A stretch of 64,000 nucleotides of DNA, from assembly GCF_024298765.1 (NCBI RefSeq), contig NZ_CP101210.1. One strand, given 5' to 3'. Below, piece by piece: positions 215 through 48,180 of this stretch. The notes below the pieces were generated by a model. It had not been told where the DNA came from and made no database searches. It worked only from the letters and a program-made list of their open reading frames with translations. The translations under genes and the position numbers were made by a program. The stretch is from Escherichia coli. GTDB taxonomy: Bacteria > Pseudomonadota > Gammaproteobacteria > Enterobacterales > Enterobacteriaceae. How positions within the stretch are numbered: the stretch's first letter is position 1; every line of letters starts with the position of its first letter.

Positions 215-1409
<1,195 letters not shown>

Positions 1410-37723: not shown

Positions 37724-37787
37724 TTCAAAGCGGGTGATGCTGCCAACTTACTGATTTAGTGTATGATGGTGTTTTTGAGGTGCTCCA

Positions 37788-38063
37788 GTGGCTTCTGTTT
37801 CTATCAGCTGTCCCTCCTGTTCAGCTACTGACGGGGTGGTGCGTAACGGCAAAAGCACCGCCGGACATCAGCGCTATCTCTGCTCTCACTGCCGTAAAAC
37901 ATGGCAACTGCAGTTCACTTACACCGCTTCTCAACCCGGTACGCACCAGAAAATCATTGATATGGCCATGAATGGCGTTGGATGCCGGGCAACAGCCCGC
38001 ATTATGGGCGTTGGCCTCAACACGATTTTACGTCACTTAAAAAACTCAGGCCGCAGTCGGTAA
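37788..38063 (+). CDS. insA: IS1 protein InsA
   Basis: 91 aa [48 protein letters not shown]... Confidence 0.9.
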
Positions 38064-38425
38064 CCTCGCGCATACAGCCGGGCAGTGACGTCATCGTCTG
38101 CGCGGAAATGGACGAACAGTGGGGCTATGTCGGGGCTAAATCGCGCCAGTTCGCCCGGATGTTGGGACTTGAACCGAAGAACACGGCGGTGCGGAGTCCG
38201 GAGAGTAACGGCATAGCAGAGAGCTTCGTGAAAACGATAAAGCGTGATTACATCAGTATCATGCCCAAACCAGACGGGTTAACGGCAGCAAAGAACCTTG
38301 CAGAGGCGTTCGAGCATTATAACGAATGGCATCCGCATAGTGCACTGGGTTATCGCTCGCCACGGGAATATCTACGGCAGCGGGCCAGTAATGGGTTAAG
38401 TGATAACAGGTGTCTGGAAATATAG
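37982..38425 (+). pseudogene. chimeric ORF: IS1 InsB N-terminus (56 aa) fused in frame to IS2 InsD C-terminus
   Basis: [16 protein letters not shown]...GAKSRQ then [34 protein letters not shown]...NRCLEI; junction at CGCCAG 38143-38148. Confidence 0.75.
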
Positions 38426-39002
38426 GGGCAAATCCACTGCATGACAAAGTCATCGGGCATTATCTGAACATAAAACACTATCAATAAGTTGGAGTCATTA
38501 CCGACGAAGCGATAGCGATAATGACTGAAAGCGGAAAAATAAAAACAAATTGAATAATGTGTTTGGTAATGAATTTATCGGGGGGAATTGGGCATATCTA
38601 CCGCTTACGTCGAGCCGCTCACACCCGGTCAATGACCTGACAATCTCCCGGCAAGTCCCGACGTCGGGACTTGCGCCCCTGACACCGAAAAATAGCAGGA
38701 ACCCGCTCGCTACGGGTCCTCAGCTCAGTGCAAACCTGACTCAGCTCCTGCATTGCATCCCCGAAATTACCACACTCAGTACTTCATCACCTGCCACCAA
38801 TACCCGTGTCAGTCCTTCGTGACCTGACGCAATTACCCGACTCAGAGCTTCAGAGTCAGCCGCCGGTACCTGCCCGGTGCTCGCCCCTGCGCAACCAAGA
38901 TAAATCGACCATTGGCAGACTGCGATCATTCGTATGCATCGCTGATGACGCGCCCGAAAAACGCGTTAATGTAAGTGTGGAACAATACTTTGTTACTATG
39001 CA

Positions 39003-40397
39003 TCAAAAAAAGTATTTGAAACGTAATCGGGCACCGTAACGATCATCGGTAATGTCACAATTACTATATCTACAGTTACTATCCAGAATTGAGTAATAAG
39101 CCCCGAGGTAAATATTAAAGTTCTCCATATCCATCACATTAGCAAACTGATAAGATGCATGAATGGTGTGAATGTTGTATATTCCTTCACCATCAATCCA
39201 GCAACCATTATTACACACGACACCACTAAATTCATCAATCTTATTATGTGCGTAGATATAACCCAGTTCGAAACGTTTCCACAGAGCATTAATACTGGCA
39301 GTGAAATCTTTCTCATTACTGGCATCCAAATAGGCGGTATTAAGAGTAACCACGATGCCATTTTCCGGATCTGTTTTCAGACCGTTCCATGTCATGCTAA
39401 TACCATAACCGGAACGATTGGACTGATCGACAAAATTCCCCTTATTATCGGTATAGCCATAAGCATTTTTTACCACGTTCGCTTCCATCGCTGCGGAGAC
39501 TGTGAATTCTTCCGTTGGCGACCAGGCAATTACCGGGCGCAGATAAGCGACATTTTTCTGCTGCTCCATATATCGTCCATGATAATTACCGTTATTATAT
39601 AAAGATGTTCCGTCTTCAAGTAACGTGTTTAACTCAAAATACCAGTTATCGAGTTGTTTACTGATGAGGAAATTACCACCAGCGTCAGAACGACCGCGTC
39701 CCTCTTTCATCATATAGATATAACCACGGCCATCAGCATAAATATCATTAGCTGTATTACCGGAATACTCAATGAAAGTATCCTGATTTAGAGGGAACAT
39801 ATCGTAAGCTTCAAAACGACCGACTTTCACTTTCCACTCGTCATCTTTTCCAAAAAAGAATAATGCATCATCAATATTCACTGAACCGTGCATATCCGCC
39901 AGTGGTTGTGCTGAAAATCCAGCGAAATAACCATTATCAAGCTTACGGGTACCGTCAAAACCTAATAGAATACGGCCATTAAGGTCCCACCGTTCATTCA
40001 CTGACTCACTGTTCGCCCCGGAACTTATCATTACTAACTGACCGGGTTTACTGGCAGCATCTATATTAAACTCCACATCACCATAAAACTTCAAATCATT
40101 GTAACCAGAGAGCAGAAAACCTGGAGAAGATGTTTTTTCTTTTGTTGACTCAACTACTGCATAGCTGTTAGCATCTTTTTTATTCTGCTCTGAACTAATT
40201 TGACGTATTTCAGAATGTTGTTCTATATCAAAACTCTTTAACATTCTTTCTGCTTTTTCCGCCCTTTTTTCTGCAGCTTCCAGGCGTTCTTCCAGCAATG
40301 CCATTCTTTGTTCAAGCGTTAGCCCCCCTGTTTTTGCTGCACACGCATTGTATTCCAGTAATAAAAAAAGAGATAAACCCAAAAGTAACTTATTCAT
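39003..40397 (-). CDS. rafY: raffinose-inducible outer membrane glycoporin
   Basis: 464 aa with signal peptide, coiled-coil N-extension, C-terminal ...RFKYFF; last gene of raf operon. Confidence 0.8.
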   Translation of the reverse strand: MNKLLLGLSLFLLLEYNACAAKTGGLTLEQRMALLEERLEAAEKRAEKAERMLKSFDIEQHSEIRQISSEQNKKDANSYAVVESTKEKTSSPGFLLSGYNDLKFYGDVEFNIDAASKPGQLVMISSGANSESVNERWDLNGRILLGFDGTRKLDNGYFAGFSAQPLADMHGSVNIDDALFFFGKDDEWKVKVGRFEAYDMFPLNQDTFIEYSGNTANDIYADGRGYIYMMKEGRGRSDAGGNFLISKQLDNWYFELNTLLEDGTSLYNNGNYHGRYMEQQKNVAYLRPVIAWSPTEEFTVSAAMEANVVKNAYGYTDNKGNFVDQSNRSGYGISMTWNGLKTDPENGIVVTLNTAYLDASNEKDFTASINALWKRFELGYIYAHNKIDEFSGVVCNNGCWIDGEGIYNIHTIHASYQFANVMDMENFNIYLGAYYSILDSNCRYSNCDITDDRYGARLRFKYFF

Positions 40398-45583: not shown

Positions 45584-46594
45584 TCAGGAGCAAGGAGGAT
45601 GAATCGTCTTTCCCGGATAAAATACCGGGTTCCAGACAACCTGTAGTGGTTTTGATGATGAATCAGTAATTATCTGATATATCATCTCGGAAATCTGGCG
45701 ACCAACGAGGCTTCGTGTTGACTGAATAACTGCAGCCACATCCAGCTCAATAATACTGTCCTGTGGCAAACCATCATATACAACCAGAGATACCGCATCT
45801 TTTCCTGAAAGACGACCGCTCAACTGCAGTGCCATGGCAGCACCATCTCCACTCAGGTCATTGTCAGTAATAATAGCTGTTGGTGGTATCGGTAGTGACA
45901 TTAACTCCATCACGGCCTGATATCCTGCTCGCCGTGTGGGAGAAACCAGCCGCAGCCATGTATCTTCCAGTTCATGCTCATTCAGTGCATCAAGCCATCC
46001 CTGACGTCTTGCAACAACATAGCTATGTGAAGTGTCTTCACTCAACAATGCAATACGTTTATGTCCCAAAGCAATCAGTTTCTGGGTTGCCTGTCCAGTC
46101 CCGGCATGATTATCAAAGTCAAACCACGCACAGGGCAGACCAGATGGTACCCGACCAAGAGCCAGAAATGGAATACCTGCTTTATGAAGGTGTGTGATAC
46201 GGGGATCGTCATCCAGAGTGTGTGCAATGATGAGAGCATCAACCCTGCGACTTTCAACAAGCCGCATATAGCTGTGGCAATCGGCATGCTCATCATCAGC
46301 TATCAGTAGTAAGTCAATATCATGGTGAGCAAGTTCCCGGCTGATGCAACTGACCATATCCATAAAAACACCACTGTTAAATGGCACATCACGTCCAGGA
46401 TAAACCAGACCGACAGCATCGGTTTTACCGGTTTTGAGTCTTCTTGCCTGAGTATTAGGACGGTAACCGCGTCGACGAGCTTCAGCTTCCACCCGTGCAC
46501 GGGTGGAAGCTGACACATCTGCATAGCCTCCAAGAGCCCGACTGACAGTGGTGACAGAAACTCCGAGTGCAGTGGCAATCGCCTTAAGTGACAT
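45584..46594 (-). CDS. rafR: LacI-family raffinose operon repressor
   Basis: 336 aa; HTH MSLKAIATALGVSVTTVSRAL. Confidence 0.8.
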   Translation of the reverse strand: MSLKAIATALGVSVTTVSRALGGYADVSASTRARVEAEARRRGYRPNTQARRLKTGKTDAVGLVYPGRDVPFNSGVFMDMVSCISRELAHHDIDLLLIADDEHADCHSYMRLVESRRVDALIIAHTLDDDPRITHLHKAGIPFLALGRVPSGLPCAWFDFDNHAGTGQATQKLIALGHKRIALLSEDTSHSYVVARRQGWLDALNEHELEDTWLRLVSPTRRAGYQAVMELMSLPIPPTAIITDNDLSGDGAAMALQLSGRLSGKDAVSLVVYDGLPQDSIIELDVAAVIQSTRSLVGRQISEMIYQIITDSSSKPLQVVWNPVFYPGKTIHPPCS

Positions 46595-46743: not shown

Positions 46744-47928
46744 TTAACTCTCCTGGATGGAAAGTGAATCAATGTAGTCAGCGTACCATTGCATCATTTC
46801 ACGGCGACCATCGAGATACAGGGCATGATTATAGGTACCCCTGATGGAATTTTTATCCACATGAGCTAACTGCATTTCAATCCAGGCAGAATTAAAGCCC
46901 TGTTCGTGCAGAATGGTACTCATGGTGTGACGAAAACCATGACCGGTTGCCCTGCCATCGTAACCGATACGTTTGAGCACCATATTGATGCTGGCTTCGC
47001 TCATTGGCTTGTTGATATCACAACGTCCCGGGAAAACCAGCCGGTATTGTCCGGAGAAAGTTTTGAGCTGCAGCAGAATGTCAGTGGCCTGTCGTGACAG
47101 TGGTACGACATGTTTACGTCGCATTTTCATGCGGCTTTCAGGGATTGTCCACAGGGCATTATCAAAATCAATTTCTGACCATTCAGCGGACCGTAGTTCA
47201 ATCGTTCTGAGGCCTGTCAGAAGCAGCAGATTTGTCGCCATGCGGGTAACAGGACTGCCATGATATTCAGCGAGCTTCCGGAGAAAAACAGGGAGCTCAT
47301 CTGCTCTCAGGTGGGGGAAATGTGCAGCTTTTGGCGCCGCCAGCGTACTGGTCAGTTCAGATGCCGGATTGACAGTGGCTCGTCCGGTGGCGATGGCATA
47401 ACGAAAAATCTGATTACAGTATTGACGCACCTTACGAAGTTTTTCCAGCGAGCCACGTTTTTCTATGCGGCGCAGAATTTCCAGCATTTCCAGCGGGAGG
47501 ATATCAGTAACGCTTCGTTTGCCCAGATACGGGAAAATATCTTTATCCAGAGCCTCCAGTACGCTTCTGGCGTAACTTTCAGACCATGACAAAGATTTAT
47601 GCTGATGCCATTCCGTAGCAAGGGCATGGAACGTATTGGTGGCAGAGATTTTCTGAGTGAGTTTTTCCTTTCGCTTCTTTTCGCCCGGGTCGCCACCTTC
47701 GGAGATAATTTTTCGGGCATCGTCGCGTTTGATTCTGGCTTCAGCAAGGGAGACGTCGGGATAGACGCCGAGGGCCAGTTTTTTCTCTTTTCCTGCTATC
47801 CGGTATTTAAGCCGCCAGTAGCGGGCACCCGTGGTTTTTACCAGCAGATATAAACCACGTTCGTCAGAGAGTTTATAGTCTTTTTCTTTAGGTCTGGCTG
47901 TTTCGACCTGTCTGGCTGTAAGTGCCAT
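46744..47928 (-). CDS. int: P4-type tyrosine integrase
   Basis: Start MALTARQVETARPKEKDYKLSDERGLYLLV (AGGAG RBS); C-terminal catalytic region HGFRHT...Y; adjacent to tRNA-Phe. Confidence 0.85.
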   Translation of the reverse strand: MALTARQVETARPKEKDYKLSDERGLYLLVKTTGARYWRLKYRIAGKEKKLALGVYPDVSLAEARIKRDDARKIISEGGDPGEKKRKEKLTQKISATNTFHALATEWHQHKSLSWSESYARSVLEALDKDIFPYLGKRSVTDILPLEMLEILRRIEKRGSLEKLRKVRQYCNQIFRYAIATGRATVNPASELTSTLAAPKAAHFPHLRADELPVFLRKLAEYHGSPVTRMATNLLLLTGLRTIELRSAEWSEIDFDNALWTIPESRMKMRRKHVVPLSRQATDILLQLKTFSGQYRLVFPGRCDINKPMSEASINMVLKRIGYDGRATGHGFRHTMSTILHEQGFNSAWIEMQLAHVDKNSIRGTYNHALYLDGRREMMQWYADYIDSLSIQES

Positions 47929-48104
47929 ATGGGGGCTCCTGAAACTGACTGAACACAATGAGCCCCCACCGGTGCCCCCAATGAACGCTTGATTGAGAGA
48001 GAGTTCAGTAGAGTTCGGTGGAGTTCAGGATGTTCAGATTGCTTGTAACGATGTGATTATACTTGAGTTTCGTGGAGTTCGGGAGATGAATCTGGAAGTG
48101 AAAG

Positions 48105-48180
48105 TGGTGCCCGGACTCGGAATCGAACCAAGGACACGGGGATTTTCAATCCCCTGCTCTACCGACTGAGCTATCCGGGC
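48105..48180 (-). tRNA. pheV: tRNA-Phe (anticodon GAA)
   Basis: Reverse complement reads GCCCGGATAGCTCAGTCGGTAGAGCAGGGGATTGAAAATCCCCGTGTCCTTGGTTCGATTCCGAGTCCGGGCACCA; pheV rather than pheU inferred from neighbouring yqgA-speC. Confidence 0.95.

What the first reader, a model, noticed from the sequence alone, without database searches (positions are those of the whole stretch)
38651..38674. Perfect 24-bp palindrome GCAAGTCCCGAC|GTCGGGACTTGC downstream of rafY
A 12+12 inverted repeat with no loop lies between the IS1 right end and the rafY stop. It could be a protein binding site, a recombination site or a REP-like element.
Basis: seen in the sequence. Interest (0 to 1): 0.2.

Follow-up and report, generated by a model that had tools for sequence, protein, structure and literature searches.

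The report
Hairpin palindrome in IS66 remnant
The perfect 24-bp palindrome is real, but it belongs to a leftover end-piece of an IS66-family insertion sequence next to the raffinose genes, not to those genes, so it is an ordinary fossil of mobile DNA with one small undocumented twist.

Summary
The palindrome GCAAGTCCCGAC|GTCGGGACTTGC is at window 38651-38674 exactly as described. It occurs once in the window and is far longer than chance gives. It is not part of the raf operon: 146 raf plasmids share only 38873-39002 downstream of rafY and lack it. It lies in a ~380-bp orphan fragment (about 38608-38996) homologous to the non-coding right end of IS66-family insertion sequences (ISEc49/ISSfl3-like). 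This is the stretch between the transposase (tnpC) stop codon and the right terminal repeat. The transposase genes are missing here. In intact relatives the same site starts 60-61 nt after the tnpC stop. A Salmonella element carries a different perfect palindrome there (GTAAGTCCTGAC|GTCAGGACTTAC), with two base pairs swapped symmetrically while the flanks differ by 31% (chance about 3e-4). So dyad symmetry is actively kept, either by selection for a hairpin or by self-templated correction. More distant relatives keep only a weaker hairpin or a different one. It has no U-tract, so it is not an intrinsic terminator. It is single-copy, so it is not REP-like. It sits at no homology boundary, so nothing marks it as a recombination site. 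In this window it is most likely a functionless fossil. Interest is low.

The parts
38651..38674 (.). Perfect 24-bp palindrome GCAAGTCCCGAC|GTCGGGACTTGC. It is the apical hairpin of the IS66-type right-end non-coding module.
   Evidence: Homologous palindromes or near-palindromes lie 60-61 nt after the tnpC stop in L003, L007 and L156.
38608..38996 (+). Orphan right-end (3' non-coding) fragment of an IS66-family insertion sequence, with no tnpA/B/C. The left edge is at 38608-38612. Clear homology to right ends of intact elements stops at 38976.
   Evidence: The left edge is fixed by comparison with an island that lacks the fragment (L152).
38688..38719 (-). Terminator-like hairpin plus T-run on the minus strand (GGACCCGtagcgagCGGGTTCC TGCTATTTTT). 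It lies 284 nt after the rafY stop and 13 nt before the palindrome in that direction.
   Evidence: -16.5 kcal/mol, z = -2.4. The same feature is at the same position in L156. It is weaker or absent in L003, L007 and L162.
38776..38874 (+). Three 33-nt direct repeats carrying the TCAGTACTTCA..CCTG motif. This is a conserved sub-terminal block of this IS66 subclade's right end.
38963..38976 (+). Inner part of the IS66-type right terminal inverted repeat (GCGTTAATGTAAGT, against GCGTCAATATGAGT in intact copies). The outer ~15 bp are replaced or degenerate.
   Evidence: Alignment A1. Strain M9 carries the same fragment with a complete repeat, caatatgagttcaccggatgcttac.
38503..38553 (+). 3' end of a BRO-N-domain gene of the island backbone (stop TGA at 38551-38553), cut by IS1.
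38554..38607 (+). Native island spacer with the tail of a YagK/YfjJ-like gene. Its 'CGCTTA' is native sequence and not an IS66 terminal repeat.
38437..38502 (+). Last 66 bp of IS1, including its right terminal repeat. The rest of this IS1 is interrupted by an IS3-family fragment further left.
   Evidence: Identification of the IS1 end rests on my own knowledge of the IS1 sequence.
39003..40397 (-). rafY (carbohydrate porin), the last gene of the raf cluster. The IS66 fragment abuts its stop codon region.

Best explanation
The palindrome is the top of a hairpin-forming element in the non-coding right end of an IS66-family insertion sequence of the ISEc49/ISSfl3-like subclade.

Shown:
- In this window only the ~380-bp right-end piece survives. 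It is wedged between the tail of a genomic-island backbone (BRO-N and YfjJ-like genes) and the rafY stop. The transposase genes are gone.
- In intact relatives the site begins 60-61 nt after the stop codon of the transposase gene tnpC.
- Its two arms stay complementary through symmetric double changes.

Inferred:
- In a live element it folds as a stem-loop in the tnpABC transcript's 3' untranslated region, where it would protect or define the mRNA 3' end. It could instead fold in single-stranded DNA.
- A neighbouring terminator facing the opposite way would stop transcription that enters the IS from outside.
- The perfection of the dyad, including the loop bases, most likely arose by template switching within the hairpin during replication (quasi-palindrome correction) and is renewed the same way.
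- In the window itself it has no gene to serve and is most likely a fossil. At most it is an incidental second barrier behind the minus-strand terminator-like hairpin that raf read-through would meet first.
For: Identity as an IS66 right end:
- Homologues of 38612-38786 lie directly after an IS66-family transposase stop codon in a Salmonella plasmid (L003, 84.6%).
- The same holds in 67 E. coli chromosomes at 60-80% identity, in the copies fetched (L007, L008, L151).
- It also holds in Enterobacter, Cedecea and Pantoea plasmids.
- 38776-38976 matches about 200 plasmids at 80-95%. In the copies fetched it again follows an IS66 transposase.
- All four transposases tested score about 411-440 bits on NCBIfam NF033517, IS66 family transposase. 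Source names for close relatives include ISEc49 and ISSfl3.
- Alignment A1 shows shared blocks out to the right terminal repeat.

Relic status:
- There is no tnpABC in the window.
- The left junction is fixed by L152.
- The same orphan fragment is found in 289-299 of 5426 complete E. coli genomes, always chromosomal. All 7 metagenome copies of the window type have the same left flank.

Dyad symmetry is kept:
- L156 has the perfect palindrome GTAAGTCCTGAC|GTCAGGACTTAC at the same site.
- Against the window it differs at 4 of 24 positions, forming two symmetric C-G to T-A pair swaps, while the flanks differ at 51 of 163 positions (31%).
- In simulation the chance of staying a perfect palindrome is about 3e-4.
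- RNAalifold picks this hairpin as the consensus for the five closest lineages.
- Shorter hairpins on the same conserved 3' arm occur in some more distant lineages. They are read by eye in L159 and L142 and predicted in L157 and partly L162.
Against: - No experiment bears on function.
- Over 13 lineages the pairing signal is barely above shuffles: 71.3% of cells paired against 68.6% (59 of 500 shuffles as high), and covariation 0.250 against 0.212 (27 of 500).
- Some relatives have a degenerate hairpin at the site (L004, L161), a decayed one (relic L149), or a differently placed one (pRK1/ISEc49 type).
- Elements with about 60% TnpC identity have almost no 3' non-coding DNA (L163, L164).
- GC-rich flanks allow alternative pairings, for example the right arm GUCGGG with the downstream CCUGAC (and direct inspection).
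- The imperfect variants show no strand-specific G-U pattern, so RNA and DNA, and sense and antisense, cannot be told apart.
- The window-type sequence was never found attached to an intact transposase gene.
Confidence: 0.6

Rival explanations
1. The palindrome is a functionless, self-perpetuating quasi-palindrome. Once an imperfect hairpin existed in the IS66 right end, template switching during replication copied one arm onto the other. Mismatches are then erased in either direction, and perfect dyads persist and drift without any selection.
For: - The dyad is perfect through the four central bases (ACGT), which an RNA hairpin does not need.
- Distant lineages have only an imperfect hairpin with a non-palindromic loop, GCACUAA.
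- Lineages show half-changed intermediates (L003, L149) alongside two different perfect states (window, L156).
- The mechanism itself is established in E. coli. This is from my own knowledge of quasi-palindrome mutagenesis (work of Ripley and of Lovett), not from a tool result.
- A second, longer perfect palindrome inside the rafR coding region of the same window shows that such dyads occur here without an obvious structural role.
Against: - It does not explain why a hairpin-prone segment sits at the same distance from the tnpC stop in several lineages.
- It does not explain why the unrelated pRK1-type right ends also carry a strong hairpin immediately after the stop.
- The relic in L149 has decayed, with a 1-nt deletion and mismatches, rather than being corrected.
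Confidence: 0.28
2. The palindrome is a dyad-symmetric DNA binding site for a dimeric protein, either an IS66 accessory protein such as TnpA or a host factor, that regulates the element.
For: - It has perfect two-fold symmetry over 24 bp, including the centre.
- It is conserved in the closest lineages.
- Another small palindrome, AGCGGGARCCCGCT, lies 25 bp away in relatives.
Against: - Relatives change both half-sites at once (positions 2/23 and 9/16). That preserves pairing but would alter base-specific contacts.
- No second copy or half-site occurs near the left end or elsewhere in the intact elements examined.
- The left arm is not conserved beyond the closest lineages, while the right arm is.
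- No candidate binding protein is known, and the literature searches gave nothing.
Confidence: 0.08
3. The palindrome is a cis element of the raf operon: the rafY terminator, an mRNA-stabilising hairpin for the raf transcript, or a RafR operator.
For: - It lies downstream of rafY and forms a strong hairpin on the minus strand too (-20.2 kcal/mol).
Against: - It is absent from all 146 raf plasmids, which share only 38873-39002 beyond rafY. No PLSDB plasmid has the window-type palindrome.
- It ends 328 nt beyond the rafY stop.
- No T-run follows it on either strand.
- A better terminator-like hairpin with a T-run precedes it in the rafY direction.
- By my own comparison with the LacI-family operator consensus as I recall it, the sequence does not fit.
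Confidence: 0.03
4. The palindrome is a REP-like dispersed repeat or a site-specific recombination site.
For: - It is an extragenic GC-rich palindrome near IS ends and on an integrase-bearing island.
Against: - There is one copy in the window and a median of one per genome. It is always in the same IS66 right-end context.
- The exact 24-mer was not found in the GTDB representative genomes or in viral contigs.
- It is not at any homology breakpoint.
- The island's integrase and tRNA-Phe attachment end are 8-9 kb away.
Confidence: 0.01

Closest known systems
IS66-family insertion sequences, ISEc49/ISSfl3-like subclade (tnpA-tnpB-tnpC, DDE transposase TnpC)
   Same: The 380-bp segment holding the palindrome is homologous, block by block, to the stretch between the tnpC stop and the right terminal repeat of intact members. 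Strain M9's copy still ends in a complete IS66-type repeat.
   Different: The window has no transposase genes, no left end, and only the inner half of the right terminal repeat, so it is a dead fragment. The hairpin itself is not described for the family in anything I could find or recall.
IS200 left-end palindromic hairpin that terminates impinging transcription (from my own knowledge of work by Beuzon and Casadesus, not verified here)
   Same: Both are strong palindromic stem-loops in the non-coding end of an IS. Here the hairpin sits next to a terminator-like hairpin oriented against inward transcription.
   Different: IS200 belongs to a different family with a Y1 transposase. The palindrome here has no U-tract on either strand and sits at the 3' side of the transposase gene. 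Its function is untested.
REP/BIME extragenic palindromes
   Same: It is an extragenic GC-rich hairpin that could stabilise an upstream mRNA 3' end.
   Different: It is single-copy rather than present in hundreds of copies. By my own comparison it does not match the REP consensus as I recall it. It is carried inside an IS end.
Rho-independent terminators
   Same: It has a stable 10-bp GC-rich stem with a 4-nt loop.
   Different: No U-tract follows it on either strand, and the pattern scan did not call it.
Quasi-palindrome template-switch hotspots in E. coli (from my own knowledge)
   Same: Lineages show imperfect intermediates and two alternative perfect states, as expected if one arm templates the other.
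   Different: That is a mutational process, not a functional class. It would explain the perfection of the dyad, not its placement.

Membership tests
IS66-family insertion sequence (right-end non-coding module) | Sequence homology to the segment between the tnpC stop codon and the right terminal repeat of intact elements | tested here: met
   84.6% to L003. About 72% to L007, L008 and L156. 88-89% to pRK1 over 38779-38976. Shared blocks appear in alignment A1.
IS66-family insertion sequence (right-end non-coding module) | Adjacent tnpA, tnpB and tnpC genes | tested here: not met
   No such ORFs lie beside the fragment in the window or in 289 identical genomes. BRO-N/YfjJ remnants flank it on the left and rafY on the right. 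It is therefore a relic, not an element.
IS66-family insertion sequence (right-end non-coding module) | Terminal inverted repeat ending ...CTTAC (GTAAG... read inward) | tested here: inconclusive
   The window keeps only GCGTTAATGTAAGT (38963-38976), and the outer ~15 bp do not match. Strain M9's copy of the same fragment has the full repeat caatatgagttcaccggatgcttac.
IS66-family insertion sequence (right-end non-coding module) | 8-bp target-site duplication | not testable with these tools
   The left end of the element is missing, so no pair of flanks exists to compare.
Rho-independent terminator | Stable GC-rich stem-loop | tested here: met
   -19.6 kcal/mol on the plus strand and -20.2 kcal/mol on the minus strand.
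Rho-independent terminator | U-rich tract immediately 3' of the stem | tested here: not met
   The plus strand continues GCCCCTGACACC and the minus strand continues CGGGAGATTGTC. The scan did not call it.
REP/BIME | Many dispersed copies per genome | tested here: not met
   There is one copy in the window and a median of 1 place per genome. The exact 24-mer was found in none of the GTDB species-representative genomes.
raf operon cis element (terminator or RafR operator) | Present downstream of rafY in other raf operons | tested here: not met
   146 raf plasmids align only from 38873 rightward. pSJ_94 has unrelated sequence where the palindrome would be.
Site-specific recombination site | Lies at a boundary of the mobile unit or at a rearrangement junction | tested here: not met
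   Homology boundaries are at 38608-12, 38873 and 38976. The integrase and tRNA-Phe end are at 46744-48180.
Conserved structured RNA element (Rfam) | Match to a curated covariance model | tested here: not met
   No relevant Rfam hit in 38000-39500 at E <= 1. The only hit is a chance snoRNA match inside rafY.

The most novel reading that the evidence does not exclude
A subclade of IS66-family elements (ISEc49/ISSfl3-like, with 220-360-nt right ends) may carry an undescribed functional cis module downstream of tnpC. Its parts would be a hairpin about 60 nt after the stop codon kept by compensatory change, an oppositely oriented terminator, and 33-nt-spaced TCAGTACTTCA repeats. Together these would control transposase mRNA fate, or insulate the element from outside transcription, or position the transposase at the right end only. 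The window's palindrome would be a fossil of that module.
Probability: 0.3. Interest if true: 0.35.

Novelty: new member of a known kind. Interest (0 to 1): 0.15.

Why it matters
For this window it matters mainly as a correction. The palindrome says nothing about raffinose gene regulation. It marks an IS66-family end fragment that lies against the rafY stop region in both the chromosomal and the plasmid forms of the raf cluster examined, which is a useful marker of how the cluster was assembled and moved.

More generally, the right ends of this IS66 subclade look organised: a hairpin, an inward-facing terminator-like hairpin and phased repeats. The family's transposition and regulation are poorly studied, so a mapped cis element would give a handle for experiments. 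This is a modest point, not a surprise for specialists.

Tried and rejected
- **Exact 24-mer in the GTDB representative genomes:** no hits.
- **Second GTDB scan with a 16-17-base flank pattern:** wasted. It returned 120 chance hits and no true homologue.
- **Metagenome scan with a longer flank pattern:** only the two sequence types already known, 7 of the window type and 6 of the afa-linked type.
- **Viral-contig scans:** no hits with the flank pattern or the degenerate palindrome. A protein-guided scan found only pRK1-type elements.
- **Rfam:** nothing relevant.
- **Phage collection:** no match.
- **Literature searches on IS66 hairpins and on rafY/pRSD2:** nothing on this element.
- **Idea that '...ACCGCTTAC' at 38600-38608 is a second IS66 terminal repeat:** rejected. 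The same bases are native in an island without the fragment (L152).
- **Idea that the palindrome is two abutted IS66 repeat tips (GTAAG...):** rejected. The arms share only about 5 bases with the elements' own terminal repeats, and no target duplication flanks it (direct inspection).
- **Search for further half-sites in intact elements:** none found.
- **Strand assignment from G-U wobbles in imperfect variants:** uninformative.
- **Broad 13-lineage covariation test:** only marginal.
- **Coding potential of the ORFs overlapping the palindrome (38550-38822 plus strand, 38619-38753 minus strand):** rejected, because relatives differ by 1-nt indels in the region.

Full report
**Observation.** The sequence GCAAGTCCCGACGTCGGGACTTGC is at 38651-38674. 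It is a perfect 12+12 dyad with no spacer, bounded by G on both sides. It occurs once in the window even with three mismatches allowed, and no dinucleotide shuffle produced a match. In 200 dinucleotide shuffles of the window the longest perfect palindrome arm was 6-11. The real window has only three perfect palindromes with arms of 9 or more. The hairpin is stable as RNA (-19.6 kcal/mol, z = -3.6) and as DNA (-12.0 kcal/mol, z = -3.9). The stated neighbours are right: the IS1 right end stops at 38502, and rafY is 39003-40397 on the minus strand.

**Not part of the raf operon.** The 500 bp between IS1 and rafY are 100% identical in many E. coli chromosomes. 289 of 5426 complete genomes cover at least 80% of the segment, and it is never annotated as a feature other than an occasional 'hypothetical protein'. 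Raf plasmids behave differently. 146 PLSDB records align at 96% only from 38873 rightward into rafY. In pSJ_94 the sequence to the left of that point is unrelated and has no such palindrome. A sensitive search of 38503-38790 against all plasmids found just eight records, none of them raf plasmids. The opposite holds.

**What the segment is.**
- Every homologue of the palindrome-bearing stretch outside the raf island that I fetched lies directly after the stop codon of an IS66-family transposase gene (tnpC). One is a Salmonella diarizonae plasmid (L003, 84.6% identity over 38612-38786).
- An IS66 element next to afa/dra adhesin genes is another. 67 E. coli chromosomes match this stretch at 60-80% identity, and the three I fetched are this element.
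- Further cases are a decayed copy in strain CFS3292 and Enterobacter, Cedecea and Pantoea plasmids.
- The right part, 38776-38976, matches about 200 plasmids at 80-95%. In the copies I fetched it again follows an IS66 transposase.
- The four transposases tested score about 411-440 bits on NCBIfam NF033517. Close relatives are named ISEc49-family and ISSfl3 by their sources.
- A ten-lineage alignment shows shared blocks from the palindrome region to the right terminal repeat.
- In the window the transposase genes are absent. To the left are the last 51 bp of a BRO-N gene (stop at 38551-38553) and a spacer with a YfjJ-like tail that is native to such islands.
- The fragment starts at 38608-38612, about 25-30 nt downstream of where the tnpC stop would be.
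- At the right only the inner 14 bp of the terminal repeat remain (38963-38976). Strain M9 has the same fragment with a complete repeat.
- The island sits at tRNA-Phe with its integrase at 46744-47958.

**Is the palindrome a feature of the IS or an accident?**
- In intact relatives the site begins 60-61 nt after the tnpC stop (L003 5040, L007 6029, L156 2463).
- The five closest lineages read as follows: window GCAAGTCCCGAC|GTCGGGACTTGC (perfect); L156 GTAAGTCCTGAC|GTCAGGACTTAC (perfect); L007 GTAACTCCTGAC|GTCAGGACTTAC (one C-C mismatch); L003 GTAAGTCCCGAC|GTCAGGACTTGC (two half-changes); relic L149 GTAAG-CCCGAC|GTCTGGACTTGC (decaying).
- The window and L156 differ at 4 of 24 positions. These form two symmetric C-G to T-A pair swaps.
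- The aligned flanks differ at 51 of 163 positions (31%). A simulation at that rate gives about 3e-4 for a 24-bp dyad remaining perfect.
- RNAalifold chooses this hairpin as the consensus for the five. Dyad symmetry is therefore actively kept.
- Symmetric complementary changes are what a nucleic-acid hairpin predicts, or a process that copies one arm from the other. They are not what a base-specific protein site predicts.

**Limits of conservation.**
- Further out, the 3' arm and the following GCGC.CCTGAC block are the conserved part.
- The partner varies. Some Enterobacter-type relatives can form a shorter stem with a 7-nt loop, read by eye in L159 and partly predicted in L162, but it is degenerate in L004 and L161.
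- Pantoea can form a wobble-rich stem at the site, although its z-score is only -0.8 and the longer-context fold prefers another pairing.
- L157 and L158 can use an upstream partner, which is predicted for L157 but not for L158.
- The pRK1/ISEc49/Shigella pINV type has a different strong hairpin directly after the stop, with one compensatory change between pRK1 and the IMG/VR viral-contig (UViG) copies.
- Elements with about 60% TnpC identity have almost no 3' non-coding DNA.
- A pair count over 13 lineages is only marginally above shuffles: 71.3% against 68.6% paired (59 of 500 shuffles as high), and covariation 0.250 against 0.212 (27 of 500).
- I therefore claim a conserved hairpin only for the closest subclade, and a hairpin-prone region more broadly.

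**Mechanism.**
- Neither strand has a U-tract after the stem, so it is not an intrinsic terminator.
- Thirteen bases to its right is a minus-strand hairpin followed by TGCTATTTTT (38688-38719). The same feature is at the same place in L156 and is weaker elsewhere. It would stop transcription entering the IS from its right flank.
- In this window it is also the first terminator-like site that raf read-through meets, 284 nt after the rafY stop.
- My best reading is inferred, not shown. In a live element the palindrome would fold in the 3' untranslated region of the tnpABC transcript and protect or define its 3' end, next to an inward-facing terminator that insulates the element. In the window it would be a fossil.
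- The perfection of the dyad, including the central ACGT, is best explained by template switching within the hairpin. This could also maintain it without any function, and that is the main rival.
- The sequence data cannot separate these two readings, and the imperfect variants give no strand-specific wobble signal.

**Comparison with known things.** The segment is a member of the IS66-family right-end sequences by homology. It fails the tests for a complete element: no genes, no left end, and a half terminal repeat. It fails the defining tests for an intrinsic terminator (no U-tract), for REP (single copy), for a raf cis element (absent from raf plasmids) and for a recombination site (not at any boundary). 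It matches no Rfam family. I found no description of this hairpin in the papers searched.

**Verdict.** The object is an ordinary relic of a known IS family. The small new point is a hairpin kept by compensatory change about 60 nt after tnpC in one IS66 subclade, beside phased TCAGTACTTCA repeats. Interest is 0.15.

Noticed in passing
window 46482-46513: A 32-bp perfect palindrome, TCAGCTTCCACCCGTG|CACGGGTGGAAGCTGA (arms of 16), is the longest in the window and far beyond any shuffle. It lies inside the rafR coding sequence (45584-46594, minus strand) and encodes SASTRARVEA at the end of the helix-turn-helix region. I did not check whether plasmid rafR genes share it.
   Followed up: partly
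window 38776-38874; also L007 6153/6186, L003 5165/5320/5354, L144 3248/3281/3314, L142 3109/3143: There are two or three copies of TCAGTACTTCA(N)CCTG at 33-nt spacing, always in the same orientation. They occur only in the right non-coding end of this IS66 subclade and not at the left end. They look like phased sub-terminal binding sites, and I know of no description of them.
   Followed up: partly
L002 3860-3925; L144-L148, L155, L160, L165-L167, L169 at the equivalent place: pRK1/ISEc49/Shigella pINV-type IS66 elements have a different strong inverted repeat immediately after the tnpC stop: CCTGYCGTCAGG, about 42 nt, then CCTGACGRCAGG. There is a T-A to C-G compensatory change between pRK1 and the IMG/VR copies.
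   Followed up: partly
L003 versus L155 and L144-L148: Right-end non-coding modules are mosaic relative to the transposase. The L003 TnpC is about 90% identical to ISEc49-type TnpC, yet the two carry different right-end types. The window's fragment is L003-like on the left and pRK1-like on the right.
   Followed up: partly
window 38873-39002 and L143 3960-4130: Both the chromosomal and the plasmid raf clusters have an IS66-type right-end remnant abutting the rafY stop, with the same degenerate junction (…GAAAAACGCGTTAATGTAAGTGTGG…). The association therefore predates their split. The plasmid form keeps only about 190 bp of it.
   Followed up: partly
window 46744-48180: The raf island is bounded by a tyrosine integrase (46744-47958, minus strand) next to tRNA-Phe (48105-48180). 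The afa/dra island carrying the related intact IS66 copy (L008) sits at a tRNA-Phe with a similarly annotated tyrosine integrase of nearly the same length.
   Followed up: no
L003 5126-5441: The Salmonella plasmid element has a tandem duplication of about 157 bp at its right end. This gives two copies of the terminal repeat-like sequence caagatgagttccccggaagcacac.
   Followed up: no
window 37759-38502: The IS1 copy left of the finding is interrupted. Its insA part is followed by a C-terminal fragment of an IS3-family (IS2-like) integrase-core gene, and then by only the last 66 bp of IS1.
   Followed up: no
window 1234-1251: An 18-bp perfect palindrome, ATTCTGCCATGGCAGAAT (arms of 9), is within the range reached by shuffles.
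   Followed up: no
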